A DNA stretch of 1,351 nucleotides from Naegleria gruberi. Lineage: Eukaryota. Positions 1 to 1,351 of the stretch are shown here, piece after piece. The notes under the pieces are model-generated. The model made no database searches, was not told the origin of the DNA, and worked only from the letters and a program-made list of their open reading frames with translations. Numbering within the stretch: the first letter of the stretch is position 1; each line of letters begins with the position of its first letter. The DNA is taken from assembly GCA_000004985.1 (NCBI GenBank), contig GG739442.1; one strand, given 5' to 3'. The translations under genes and the position numbers were made by a program.

Positions 1-272
1 AGAGATTCCACATTGACAGCTGAATTACCAGTGAGGATAATAATTTTGACAGAATTTCCATACAAACGCTTCAACTCTTTAGCTGCCTCAATACCATCCA
101 TGTTTGGCATGTTAAGATCTGTAATCACCAACCTATGGCGTCGAATGTCAAAATTTTTAACTAATTCCTTTCCATCTGAGACAAAATCAGCTGTATATCC
201 TGTAATACTTTCAATGAGTTTGAGGATGACTTTTCTATTGATAGCATTATCTTCTGCCAGAATAATCTTTGA
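1..272 (-). other. Response-regulator receiver (REC) domain, truncated by the window edge. The predicted phospho-acceptor Asp codon is GAT at 117..119 (D in LVITDLNMP).
   Basis: SKIILAEDNAINRKVILKLIESITGYTADFVSDGKELVKNFDIRRHRLVITDLNMPNMDGIEAAKELKRLYGNSVKIIILTGNS. It has the acidic pair ED near the N-terminus, the hhhhD-hxMPxMDG phosphorylation-site block and the hhhhT block (IIILTG). The conserved Lys further C-terminal lies outside the window. A REC domain fused C-terminal to the kinase core defines a hybrid histidine kinase. Confidence 0.85.
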
Positions 273-615
273 ATAAACTTCTGGAGAATTGGTAGCAGCA
301 GATTCTTCACTCATTTCATGAACATTTGATAAAAGAGAAAGGTATCTCTGTTGAATTGAAAAATTCATCTTGGCTCCACTATTATCCCAATCAGAAAATT
401 CCGCCTTTTTCATTATTTTGAAAGGTAGTGTGACAATAAATGTACTTCCTTTTTCTAGTTCAGATTCCACATCTATAGTTCCATCCATTTGTTTAATAAA
501 TTGTAAGACAGTAGTTAAGCCCAATCCTGATGATGGAACGTGAGATTCGTTCACATTGTGTAATTGAATAAATGGCTCGAAAATTTCCTTAATATTTGAT
601 TCTGGAATGCCACAT
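1..615 (-). CDS. Hybrid sensor histidine kinase, exon B (3'-partial, continues below position 1). Encodes the rest of HATPase_c (G1 second half, F-box, G2 box), an inter-domain linker and about 90 aa of the C-terminal receiver domain.
   Basis: Minus-strand translation from 615, where base 615 completes the split codon gg|a = Gly: (G)CGIPESNIKEIFEPFIQLHNVNESHVPSSGLGLTTVLQFIKQMDGTIDVESELEKGSTFIVTLPFKIMKKAEFSDWDNSGAKMNFSIQQRYLSLLSNVHEMSEESAATNSPEVYSKIILAEDNAINRKVILKLIESITGYTADFVSDGKELVKNFDIRRHRLVITDLNMPNMDGIEAAKELKRLYGNSVKIIILTGNSAVNVES. There is no stop in this frame down to the window edge, and the codon phase is consistent (complete codons start at 3k). Confidence 0.85.
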
Positions 616-937
616 CTGTTTTCATATTAGATGAGAAATAAAATTCCACAACATACCCATGATCCTTGATTTTAAATTCAACTCTAGCGAATTCTGCTGA
701 TTCCTCTTGGATTGTCTCTATAATTTTGGCTTCCAATTCGACAGTGTTATTCTTACTTGAGGCTTTAACTGCATTAGTTAGTAAGTTAGATAAAATTTGA
801 TGTAAACTTGATGGATTTGATTCAATAATTAGATTTTCAACTTGAGAATAGTCAAATTCCAACTTGACTGAAAAATGATTCGAATAACCAGAAATGACAT
901 CTTTAAGGGATTTTAGACATTCTCCCAAATTGAATGT
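417..937 (-). other. HATPase_c (GHKL ATP-binding, CA) domain, split by the 41-nt intron at 616..656.
   Basis: N-box LHQILSNLLTNAVKAS (Asn codon about 773..775). G1 box IKDHG|CGIPE spans the splice junction. F-box IFEPFIQ. G2 box SSGLGLTTVLQFIKQMDGTIDVESELEKGSTFIVTLPF. All canonical boxes are present in the canonical order and spacing. Confidence 0.82.
616..656 (-). other. Spliceosomal intron, 41 nt, on the minus strand: 5' splice site GTATGT (656..651), putative branch point CTAAT (630..626, branch A at 627), 3' splice site CAG (618..616).
   Basis: The continuous frame reads KIKDHGYVVEFYFSSNMKTDVAFQNQILRKFSSHLFNYTM* and reaches TGA at 551..553 without the G1/F/G2 boxes. The +1 frame is open from 615 down to 1 and encodes CGIPESNIKEIFEPFIQ...SSGLGL...REC, but has a TAA stop just upstream, inside the CTAAT. 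Joining ...cat gg (657) to a tgt ggc... (615) via GTATGT...CAG restores the frame exactly and reconstitutes the conserved D-x-G-x-G-I-P-E G1 box (DHGCGIPE). The fungal-type donor GTATGT and a CTRAY branch motif 11 nt from the 3' splice site fit short fungal introns. Confidence 0.75.
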
Positions 938-1351
938 TTTTAAATACTCATCTCGTTTGTCATTCTTTGAATTGAATTCAATTTTCATCAATTGTAACAC
1001 TTCCTCAATGAGCATTAGCAAAATATTGTTGGATGAAATAATCATGTCAACCAGTCGATTTTGCTTGTCACTCATATTTGTTTCTTTCAATAATTCCAAA
1101 CTTCCCAATGACGACAGCAATGGGCACCTAAATTCATGTGAAATGTGAGACAAAAATGTACTTTTTGATTCTAGAGCTGACTCTAGTTTCTTACTGGTTT
1201 CTTCCAAAGTTGCAACTTTCTGCCTCAAATAACCAGTCACATTAACCTTGTAATAGGTGAATACCCAAATACAACAAGTCATTGAAGCACATTCACAAGC
1301 TGAATCCACAAATGTCTCACTACATCCCTTCCTCACAAATTCCATCACAGA
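657..1351 (-). CDS. Hybrid sensor histidine kinase, exon A (5'-partial, ORF open to the window edge at 1351). Encodes the Cys-rich segment, coiled-coil linker, HisKA (H-box) and the N-terminal part of HATPase_c (N-box, first half of the G1 box). It ends in codon phase 2 (...cat gg|).
   Basis: Minus-strand translation: SVMEFVRKGCSETFVDSACECASMTCCIWVFTYYKVNVTGYLRQKVATLEETSKKLESALESKSTFLSHISHEFRCPLLSSLGSLELLKETNMSDKQNRLVDMIISSNNILLMLIEEVLQLMKIEF...LHQILSNLLTNAVKAS...VEFKIKDHG. H-box SHISHEFRCPL matches the HisKA consensus (ShELRTPL). N-box LLTNAVKAS matches NLLxNAxKFT. The first 'M' in the ORF track is a GTG codon (1346..1348) and codon 1349..1351 is also sense, so the CDS continues upstream out of the window. 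Confidence 0.88.
977..1171 (-). other. HisKA (DHp) dimerisation/phosphotransfer domain. The predicted autophosphorylated His codon is CAT at 1136..1138 (H in SHEFRCPL).
   Basis: ESKSTFLSHISHEFRCPLLSSLGSLELLKETNMSDKQNRLVDMIISSNNILLMLIEEVLQLMKIE. This is a typical two-helix DHp pattern with the H-E-x-R-x-P-L box. It is preceded by a predicted coiled-coil or signalling helix (LRQKVATLEETSKKLESALES, about 1172..1230). Confidence 0.8.

What the first reader, a model, noticed from the sequence alone, without database searches (positions are those of the whole stretch)
600..670. A 41-nt GTATGT...CTAAT...CAG intron splits the G1 ATP-binding box, so the gene is eukaryotic and spliced, not a frameshifted bacterial kinase.
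Read naively, the six-frame ORF ends in a nonsense tail (YVVEFYFSSNMKTDVAFQNQILRKFSSHLFNYTM*) and lacks the G1 C-terminal half, the F-box and the G2 box, which looks like a broken bacterial gene. The missing boxes sit immediately downstream in the +1 frame. The only canonical GT...AG pair that restores the frame (donor after ...cat gg at 657, acceptor CAG at 616..618) also rebuilds the invariant DxGxGIPE motif across the junction as DHG|CGIPE. Frame restoration plus motif reconstitution from one boundary choice is strong internal evidence for a genuine intron. The GTATGT donor, the CTAAT branch motif and the very short 11-nt branch-to-3' splice-site distance match the architecture of short fungal introns, including the fission-yeast type, as far as I recall it. 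Calling this gene with a prokaryotic gene-finder would truncate it and delete its catalytic core.
Basis: partly seen in the sequence, partly recalled or inferred. Interest (0 to 1): 0.6.

Follow-up and report, generated by a model that had tools for sequence, protein, structure and literature searches.

The report
Short intron in an amoeba-type histidine kinase
The 41-base interruption is almost certainly an ordinary short spliceosomal intron inside the ATP-binding motif of a eukaryotic hybrid histidine kinase gene, whose closest relatives are in Naegleria-like amoebae rather than fungi or bacteria.

Summary
On the minus strand, 656..616 is a 41-nt GTATGT…CTAAT…CAG element. Removing it joins two reading frames into one stop-free 436-aa ORF over the whole window: HisKA, HATPase_c, then a receiver domain. 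It rebuilds the G1 box as DHG|CGIPE.

Evidence that it is an intron:
- The HATPase_c score rises from 25.7 to 88.5 bits.
- Eleven homologues align without a gap across the junction.
- GTAWGT occurs only once on this strand, at the donor.
- The closest relative, metagenome contig L001 (about 67-70% identity), has an unrelated 62-nt GT-AG intron at the same codon position and phase.
- Both exons show dN/dS of about 0.17-0.18 against L001.

- This is not the only frame-restoring GT..AG pair; 14 of 70 are stop-free. It is the best-scoring one and the only one that restores the motif.
- The gene is not fungal. All named close homologues are Naegleria (Heterolobosea) hybrid kinases, whose genes carry introns of roughly 42-71 nt.

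No RNA evidence was available and the source organism is unidentified. This is an ordinary feature and a new member of a known kind. Its main use is as a gene-calling caveat.

The parts
657..1351 (-). Exon A, open at its 5' end because it runs off the window. It encodes residues 1-231 plus the first two bases of Gly232: the last transmembrane-like Cys-rich segment, a linker, HisKA (H-box His72 at 1138..1136), the N box, and the first half of G1 (D230-H231-G).
   Evidence: tblastn HSPs in frame -1 end at 656 for 10 of the 11 homologues.
616..656 (-). A 41-nt phase-2 spliceosomal-type intron, GTATGT...CTAAT...CAG.
   Evidence: A relative (L001) has an intron at the same position and phase.
651..656 (-). 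5' splice site GTATGT, in the exon context TGG|GTATGT.
   Evidence: This is the only GTAWGT on the minus strand of the window.
626..630 (-). Candidate branch-point motif CTAAT (fits CTRAY). The putative branch A at 627 is 11 nt from the 3' end of the intron.
   Evidence: Read directly from the sequence. It is weak evidence on its own (about 8% by chance). My reading of the relatives' introns finds CTAAT near the 3' end of L003 intron 3 and of the L004 aldo-keto reductase intron.
616..618 (-). 3' splice site CAG.
1..615 (-). Exon B, open at its 3' end because it runs off the window. It encodes the rest of G1 (C233-G234-I235-P-E), the F box (IFEPFIQ), the G2 box (SSGLGL), a linker, and most of the receiver domain (E353-D354; phospho-acceptor D398 at 119..117; T427).
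   Evidence: tblastn HSPs in frame -3 start at 614/611 for 10 of the 11 homologues.
977..1168 (-). HisKA (DHp) domain, residues 62-125.
   Evidence: Pfam PF00512, 46.3 bits.
417..814 (-). HATPase_c catalytic domain, residues 180-298, interrupted by the intron.
   Evidence: Pfam PF02518, 88.5 bits spliced against 25.7 bits unspliced.
15..266 (-). Response-regulator receiver domain, residues 349-432, cut off by the end of the window.
   Evidence: Pfam PF00072, 58.4 bits, profile positions 1-82 of 111.
551..553 (-). The premature TGA reached if the intron is read through. It ends the 265-aa 'naive' ORF.

Best explanation
The window is an internal piece of a nuclear gene for a membrane-associated hybrid histidine kinase (last transmembrane segment, linker, HisKA, HATPase_c, linker, receiver). 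The gene comes from a eukaryote related to Naegleria (Heterolobosea).

The catalytic domain is interrupted, inside the Gly codon of the G1 box (DHG|CGIPE, phase 2), by a 41-nt U2-type GT-AG intron. The inferred mechanism is ordinary splicing: U1 pairs with TGG|GUAUGU, the branch forms at or near the CUAAU 11 nt upstream of the CAG, and the spliceosome excises 656..616. This joins 657 to 615 and yields an mRNA that encodes an intact kinase.

If the intron is not removed, translation ends after 34 nonsense codons, at TGA 553..551. The product then lacks half of G1, the F and G2 boxes, and the receiver domain. That is also what a prokaryotic gene caller would output.

What is shown: the sequence anatomy, the restoration of frame and motif, the homology, the conserved intron position in one relative, and purifying selection on both exons. 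What is inferred: excision in RNA, use of that branch point, and the identity of the organism.
For: - Splicing 656..616 gives one stop-free 436-aa ORF over the whole window.
- Pfam finds HisKA, a full HATPase_c (88.5 bits against 25.7 unspliced) and Response_reg.
- All 11 homologues tested by tblastn switch from frame -1 to frame -3; 10 of them break at 656 and 614/611 with adjacent or near-adjacent query residues, and the other two HSP ends (P0005, P0011) overrun the junction by chance.
- In the alignment, D230, G232, G234, I235, F244, F247 and G262-L265 are invariant, and no gap falls at the junction. Solved hybrid kinases also align straight through it.
- Of 70 GT..AG pairs nearby, this one scores best against a family HMM (595.5 bits against 570.0 or less) and alone rebuilds the G1 box.
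- GTAWGT occurs only once on this strand, at the donor.
- The nearest relative, contig L001 (protein P0008, 66-71% amino-acid identity), has a 62-nt GTAAGT...ATAG intron at exactly the same codon position and phase (DYG|YGIPE), with little similarity beyond the splice signals.
- dN/dS between the window and L001 is 0.18 for exon 1 and 0.17 for exon 2. The downstream, frame-shifted part is therefore still selected as protein.
- The closest named proteins are all Naegleria gruberi, fowleri or lovaniensis histidine kinases at 39-49% identity; bacterial hits are at most 33%. A neighbour-joining tree puts the window with L001 inside that clade.
- N. lovaniensis paralogue gene models contain GT-AG introns of 42, 42 and 71 nt, and of roughly 52-70 nt by my reading of the junction sequences. 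So 41 nt is a normal size for this lineage.
- The literature reports 24 mostly transmembrane hybrid kinases in N. gruberi (PMC6324907) and introns of 9-95 bp in the heterolobosean Acrasis kona (PMC11589745).
Against: - There is no transcript evidence. No spliced or near-identical protein or cDNA exists in the searched collections.
- The source organism is unknown. An exact 61-mer is absent from the bacterial/archaeal genome collection and the viral collection, and the JGI metagenome scan gave only distant bacterial kinases.
- Only one relative (L001) shares the intron position. P0001/L002 and all Naegleria paralogues examined lack an intron at this exact site.
- The branch-point motif is not statistically compelling alone.
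- dS is about 1.1-1.3, which is near saturation, so the dN/dS values are approximate.
Confidence: 0.93

Rival explanations
1. The gene is a pseudogene. A 41-bp insertion, or an equivalent frameshift, has broken a bacterial or eukaryotic histidine kinase, and nothing is spliced.
For: Read without splicing, the ORF is truncated and lacks its catalytic core. No RNA evidence is available.
Against: - The insertion has a full 5' splice-site hexamer, the only one on the strand, plus CAG at the exact ends that restore both frame and motif (joint chance about 2.6e-5).
- Exon B is stop-free for 615 nt in the shifted frame.
- Exon B has dN/dS of 0.17 against L001, the same as exon A.
- L001 has a different-length, apparently unrelated insert at the same codon position, also GT-AG.
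- The nearest homologues are eukaryotic.
Confidence: 0.03
2. It is a real intron, but with different boundaries. One of the other 13 frame-preserving GT..AG pairs is used, for example 613/588 (26 nt) or 649/588 (62 nt).
For: Those pairs also give a stop-free frame over the window.
Against: - They score 25 or more bits lower against the family HMM.
- They delete or garble the invariant G1 residues G234 and I235, and in some cases part of the F box.
- By my reading of the sequence, their donors are poor: GTTGTG at 652, GTGGAA at 649 and GTGGCA at 613. None matches GTAWGT.
- They do not correspond to the intron position in L001.
Confidence: 0.01
3. The intron is regulated. It is sometimes retained, giving an NMD target or a kinase-dead protein that has only the DHp domain and modulates signalling.
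For: Intron retention is reported as the dominant form of alternative splicing across eukaryotes, including N. gruberi (PMC6142364). Retention here creates a premature stop downstream of HisKA.
Against: Nothing in the sequence argues for regulation. The splice signals are strong, the intron sequence is not conserved with L001 beyond the splice signals, and no structured RNA family matches it. This reading adds to the main explanation and does not replace it.
Confidence: 0.05
4. It is an assembly or sequencing artefact, such as a chimeric join or a spurious 41 bases in a short contig.
For: The window is only 1351 nt and its origin is unknown.
Against: An artefact would not carry canonical splice signals at frame-exact boundaries. 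It would also not coincide with the intron site of an independently assembled relative from another sample.
Confidence: 0.01

Closest known systems
Naegleria (Heterolobosea) transmembrane hybrid histidine kinases. Examples are N. gruberi 'predicted protein' P0002, N. lovaniensis C9374_014302 (P0005) and C9374_008361 (P0007), and N. fowleri FDP41_006325 (P0009). Kabbara et al. 2018 (PMC6324907) place the N. gruberi kinases in Excavata groups II-IV.
   Same: - They share the architecture: multi-transmembrane N-terminus, HisKA, HATPase_c, receiver.
- They share family-specific motifs such as SHISHEFRCP, LTNAVKAS, IFEPFxQLHNVNES, AEDNxINRKV and TDxNMP.
- Identity is 39-49% over nearly the whole window and up to 55% in the kinase core.
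- Their genes carry short GT-AG introns of 42-71 nt.
   Different: - None is an obvious orthologue.
- The intron positions differ. Naegleria paralogues have introns 11 nt upstream (P0005), just before the G2 box (P0018) and at TD[LMI]|NMP in the receiver, but none at the exact G1 site.
- The window lacks those other introns.
Metagenome contig L001 (ENA ERZ929261, k127_159497; protein P0008).
   Same: It is the closest relative: 66-71% amino-acid identity and 71-75% nucleotide identity in the exons. Its intron is at the identical codon position and phase in the G1 box (DYG|YGIPE). A prokaryotic gene caller split it into two genes at that point.
   Different: Its intron is 62 nt, not 41. It begins GTAAGT and ends ATAG, and it has little similarity to the window's intron beyond the splice signals. 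It comes from a different organism or is a paralogue.
Short fungal introns of the fission-yeast type (GTAWGT donor, CTRAY branch close to the 3' splice site).
   Same: The signal architecture is the same: a GTATGT donor, a CTAAT branch-like motif, a short branch-to-3' splice-site distance and an overall length of about 40-60 nt.
   Different: The resemblance reflects the general U2-type signals of short-intron eukaryotes, not ancestry. No protein named as fungal is among the best 120 homologues (only about a quarter of database proteins carry a name), and the gene sits in the heterolobosean clade.
Bacterial hybrid sensor kinases, for example P0022 and the Desertivirga response regulator/kinase P0034.
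   Same: They have the same catalytic domains and motifs.
   Different: They are only 24-33% identical, have no intron, and fall outside the Naegleria-type clade.

Membership tests
U2-type (GT-AG) spliceosomal intron | GT at the 5' end and AG at the 3' end, with extended consensus (GTAWGT ... YAG). | tested here: met
   The ends are GTATGT at 656..651 and CAG at 618..616. GTAWGT is unique on the strand.
U2-type (GT-AG) spliceosomal intron | Removal restores a continuous reading frame and uninterrupted homology. | tested here: met
U2-type (GT-AG) spliceosomal intron | A branch-point motif lies upstream of the 3' splice site. | tested here: inconclusive
   CTAAT lies 11 nt from the 3' end, but the motif is expected by chance about 8% of the time. 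Use of this branch point is not testable here.
U2-type (GT-AG) spliceosomal intron | The intron position is shared with a homologous gene while the intron sequence diverges. | tested here: met
   L001 has a 62-nt intron at the same codon and phase, with little similarity beyond the splice signals. The other relatives do not share the position.
U2-type (GT-AG) spliceosomal intron | Excision is observed in mature RNA. | not testable with these tools
   No transcript data for the source are available, and no spliced product is present in the protein collection.
U2-type (GT-AG) spliceosomal intron | The host genome is eukaryotic and nuclear. | tested here: inconclusive
   This is inferred from the nearest homologues being Naegleria nuclear genes that contain introns. 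The 61-mer is absent from the prokaryotic and viral collections. The window holds no marker gene.
Hybrid histidine kinase (HisKA + HATPase_c + receiver) | All three Pfam domains score above their gathering thresholds. | tested here: met
   HisKA 46.3 bits (threshold 26.9), HATPase_c 88.5 (26.4), Response_reg 58.4 (30.2).
Hybrid histidine kinase (HisKA + HATPase_c + receiver) | The H-box His, the N, G1, F and G2 boxes, and the receiver acidic pair and phospho-acceptor Asp are all present. | tested here: met
   H72, N189/N193, D230/G232/G234, F244/F247, G262/G264, D354 and D398 are invariant in the alignment. The receiver Lys lies beyond the end of the window.
Hybrid histidine kinase (HisKA + HATPase_c + receiver) | Autophosphorylation and phosphorelay activity. 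| not testable with these tools
   This needs biochemistry.
Heterolobosean (Naegleria-type) histidine kinase clade | The closest homologues and the tree placement lie within the Naegleria kinases. | tested here: met
   The best named hits are all Naegleria. The neighbour-joining tree nests the window with L001 inside the clade that contains N. gruberi P0002 (no bootstrap support was computed).
Fungal hybrid histidine kinase or fungal gene | The closest homologues are fungal. | tested here: not met
   No protein named as fungal is among the best 120 hits; the named ones are Naegleria and then bacteria. Only about a quarter of database proteins carry a name.
Self-splicing (group I/II) intron or other structured RNA element | A match to a structured RNA family and an adequate length. 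| tested here: not met
   At 41 nt it is far too short. Rfam finds nothing in the window except a sub-threshold chance mir-95 hit on the other strand.

The most novel reading that the evidence does not exclude
The G1-box intron may be a lineage-specific gain. It would have arisen in an uncultured heterolobosean lineage after an ancient bacterial-type kinase family expanded in these amoebae. Only the window and L001 share it, while paralogues carry introns at four or more other sites. Its retention could also be used to produce a kinase-dead, DHp-only regulator. Together with the metagenome relatives, the locus would then give a small, datable series for studying intron gain, loss or sliding in a protist gene family.
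Probability: 0.15. Interest if true: 0.3.

Novelty: new member of a known kind. Interest (0 to 1): 0.12.

Why it matters
The main value is practical. Eukaryotic contigs in metagenomes, or in mixed assemblies, that are run through prokaryotic gene finders give truncated 'broken' kinases.

Several public relatives show this. P0008 stops at the same G1 intron. P0015, P0019, P0020 and P0024 end just before the G2 box, where paralogue P0018 has a mapped intron. P0004 and P0006 read through into an intron after TDM in the receiver. The N. gruberi reference proteins P0002 and P0010 end the same way.

Biologically, the window adds one more member to the large and poorly characterised hybrid histidine kinase family of heterolobosean amoebae. 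It also shows that intron positions in this family vary between paralogues. It does not change what is known about splicing or two-component signalling.

Tried and rejected
- JGI metagenome scan with the spliced protein. It returned only distant bacterial kinases (32% identity or less over most of the protein; up to 42% in receiver-only matches), because the generic DLNMPNMD-type patterns dominated. It was of no use for finding the source or more intron-bearing relatives.
- Exact 61-mer spanning the intron, searched in the bacterial/archaeal genome collection and in viral contigs. There were no matches, so the source is not in those collections.
- Viral contigs scanned with the family alignment. 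Only relatives at 31% identity or less were found. A giant-virus origin is not supported.
- The look-up of encoding contigs for the N. gruberi proteins P0002 and P0010. They are not on record, so their gene structures could not be checked.
- Exact exon mapping of N. lovaniensis P0005. It failed because the record does not translate exactly to the protein. Its later introns were read by eye from HSP boundaries instead.
- Literature searches for Naegleria intron-length statistics and for project PRJEB11402. They gave no usable numbers, so intron sizes were taken from the loci themselves.
- Rfam scan of the window. Nothing relevant was found.
- Considered and rejected: a frameshift pseudogene, alternative GT..AG pairs, an assembly artefact, and a group I/II intron (see the rival explanations and membership tests).

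Full report
**Observation**

The minus strand of the window reads ...AAG GAT CAT GG | GTATGTTGTGGAATTTTATTTCTCATCTAATATGAAAACAG | A TGT GGC ATT CCA GAA.... Exon 1 ends at 657, the 41-nt segment occupies 656..616, and exon 2 starts at 615.

Without splicing, the longest ORF (551..1348, 265 aa) ends in ...KDHGYVVEFYFSSNMKTDVAFQNQILRKFSSHLFNYTM*. With 656..616 removed, frame 0 from base 1351 is stop-free to base 1. It encodes 436 residues containing ...FKIKDHGCGIPESNIKEIFEPFIQLHNVNESHVPSSGLGL.... The segment is 27% G+C against 33.5% for the window.

**Does splicing restore a real protein?**

- Pfam finds HisKA (residues 62-125, 46.3 bits), HATPase_c (180-298, 88.5 bits, profile positions 3-110 of 111) and Response_reg (349-432, 58.4 bits, cut by the window end) in the spliced product. 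The unspliced ORF gives only 25.7 bits for HATPase_c, below the 26.4-bit threshold, and covers profile positions 3-46.
- tblastn of eleven homologues against the window gives two HSPs in every case. One is in frame -1 and ends at 656 (644 for P0011). The other is in frame -3 and begins at 614 or 611 (671 for P0005). The query residues are adjacent or nearly so, for example P0001 388|389, P0002 512|513 and P0006 163|164.
- In a multiple alignment no gap falls at the junction. The invariant residues are H72 (H box); N189 and N193 (N box); D230, G232, G234 and I235 (G1); F244 and F247 (F box); G262-L265 (G2); and D354, D398 and T427 (receiver).
- Solved hybrid kinases (for example 6qrj) also align straight across the junction.

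**Is the boundary choice unique, and is it more than chance?**

That is not correct. Of 70 GT..AG pairs with donors between 540 and 760, 14 leave the window stop-free.

Scored against an HMM built from 16 homologues, pair 656/616 is best (595.5 bits; next best 570.0; unspliced 298.3). It is also the only pair that rebuilds DxGxGIPE; the others delete or garble G1 or the F box.

GTA[AT]GT occurs once on the entire minus strand, at 656. From base composition, GTAWGT and YAG at two fixed positions have a joint probability of about 2.6e-5. A CTRAY in a 20-nt span is expected about 8% of the time, and there are eight on this strand. It is therefore supportive but not probative.

**Comparative evidence**

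The best database hits are unnamed metagenome proteins and Naegleria proteins. Every named hit with E below 1e-65 is a Naegleria gruberi, N. fowleri or N. lovaniensis histidine kinase (39-49% identity over 84-99% of the query). Below them identity drops to 33% or less, in bacterial kinases. No protein named as fungal is in the best 120.

The most similar protein, P0008 (67% identity), stops at ...KVTDYG, which is exactly at the G1 box. Its contig L001 (ENA ERZ929261) reads ...ACT GAC TAT GG | GTAAGTAATAATTTTG...AAATGGAATAG | T TAT GGT ATT CCA GAA.... This is a 62-nt GT-AG intron (2152..2213) in the same Gly codon and the same phase, giving DYG|YGIPE. Its sequence resembles the window's intron only in the splice signals and short AT-rich runs.

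Between the window and L001, exon 1 (230 codons) is 66% identical in protein, with dN/dS 0.18. Exon 2 (139 codons) is 71% identical, with dN/dS 0.17. dS is about 1.1-1.3, so the values are approximate. Equal purifying selection on the part downstream of the 'frameshift' argues strongly against a pseudogene.

**Lineage and intron style**

A neighbour-joining tree of the kinase core puts the window as sister to L001. Both sit within a clade that holds N. gruberi P0002 and several metagenome sequences. That clade is sister to the other Naegleria paralogues, with bacterial kinases outside (no bootstrap support was computed).

N. lovaniensis gene models in this family contain exactly mapped GT-AG introns of 71 nt (P0007) and 42 and 42 nt (P0018). 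By my reading of the junction sequences, they also contain introns of about 52, 58, 67 and 70 nt in P0005. L004 carries a 57-nt intron in its kinase gene and a 43-nt intron in a neighbouring aldo-keto reductase gene. So 41 nt is within the normal range, and GTAAGT/GTATGT donors are the norm.

The literature agrees. N. gruberi encodes 24 histidine kinases, mostly transmembrane hybrids (PMC6324907). The heterolobosean Acrasis kona has 60 kinase domains and introns of 9-95 bp (PMC11589745).

It says nothing about ancestry, and the gene is of the heterolobosean type.

**Intron positions across the family**

- The G1 site is shared only by the window and L001.
- P0001/L002 encodes DYGCGIP without interruption.
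- N. lovaniensis P0005 has an intron 11 nt upstream (FQV|MDHGCGI, phase 0).
- P0018 has one before the G2 box (VYK|GSGLGL). Four metagenome proteins are truncated near that point.
- Many members have one at TD[LMI]|NMP in the receiver.
- Two appear to have one at AE|D.
- The window lacks all of these others. Whether the G1 intron is a gain in the window/L001 lineage or an ancestral intron lost elsewhere cannot be decided from these data.

**Source**

The source is not identified. The exact 61-mer across the intron is absent from the GTDB genome collection and from IMG/VR. The JGI metagenome and viral scans found only distant relatives, at 32% identity or less over most of the protein. Rfam finds nothing relevant. 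The plus strand has no ORF longer than 87 aa.

**Mechanism**

The steps shown are the anatomy, the frame and motif restoration, the homology, the positional conservation and the selection on both exons. The inferred steps are as follows. The pre-mRNA is spliced by the major spliceosome: U1 pairs at UGG|GUAUGU, the branch forms at or near CUAAU, and cleavage follows the CAG. This joins 657 to 615 and produces an intact ATP-binding domain. If the intron is retained, a premature stop at 553..551 gives a protein with DHp but no functional catalytic or receiver domain.

**Verdict**

It is an ordinary spliceosomal intron in a new member of a known family. Interest is low, apart from the gene-calling caveat.

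Noticed in passing
Proteins P0002 and P0010 (N. gruberi reference annotations), P0004/L004 3335..3396, and P0006: Several public protein models end in short nonsense tails right after the receiver motif TD[ML]: ...VFTDMVGSSNFVF, ...VITDLTEHASNGWY, ...VFTDMVCFITNI. In L004 this is read-through into a 57-nt GT..AG intron, after which NMPNMNGLEAGKEL... continues. The two N. gruberi reference proteins therefore appear to be truncated by a missed intron in the receiver domain.
   Followed up: partly
Proteins P0015, P0019, P0020, P0024 (ENA/JGI metagenomes) and N. lovaniensis P0018 (L085 13813..13854): The family has a second recurrent intron site just before the G2 box (…NESKVP|… / VYK|GSGLGL). Four metagenome proteins are truncated near that point, and P0018 has a mapped 42-nt intron there. 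The window has no intron at this site.
   Followed up: partly
L003 3361..3418 (N. lovaniensis C9374_014302, P0005): An intron of about 58 nt lies 11 nt upstream of the window's intron site (FQV|MDHGCGI, phase 0). It is close to the window's site but not the same. It could be an independent gain or intron sliding.
   Followed up: no
L004 205..1291: An aldo-keto reductase on the same metagenome contig as kinase P0004 was called as two genes (205-627 and 638-1291). By my reading of the junction sequence, a 43-nt GTAAGT...CTAAACTAATGGTTTCAG intron splits it (LGTD|YIDLYIIH). This is independent support that these ENA contigs are eukaryotic and have short introns.
   Followed up: partly
L085 10001..14479 (N. 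lovaniensis PYSW02000034.1): Two hybrid histidine kinase genes (P0007, P0018) lie in tandem about 700 bp apart. A third paralogue (P0012) is on the same 487-kb contig. This points to local duplication in the family.
   Followed up: no
window 1351..1240 (minus strand), residues 1-37: The Cys-rich hydrophobic segment CSETFVDSACECASMTCCIWVFTYYKVNVTGYL is closely matched in P0008 (FVDSLCETVSLTCCIWIFTYYRVNVTGYL). It looks like the last transmembrane helix of a multi-pass sensor region, most of which lies upstream of the window.
   Followed up: no
window 1006..1080 (+): There is a sub-threshold Rfam match to the mir-95 precursor (21.4 bits against a 67.5-bit gathering score, E 0.36), antisense to the HisKA coding region. 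I regard it as chance.
   Followed up: no
L003 1501..2829: The N. lovaniensis locus does not translate exactly to its deposited protein P0005 (first HSP 87% identity; 'translates_to_query: no'). The 5' part of that gene model probably contains further introns, or differs between assembly versions.
   Followed up: no
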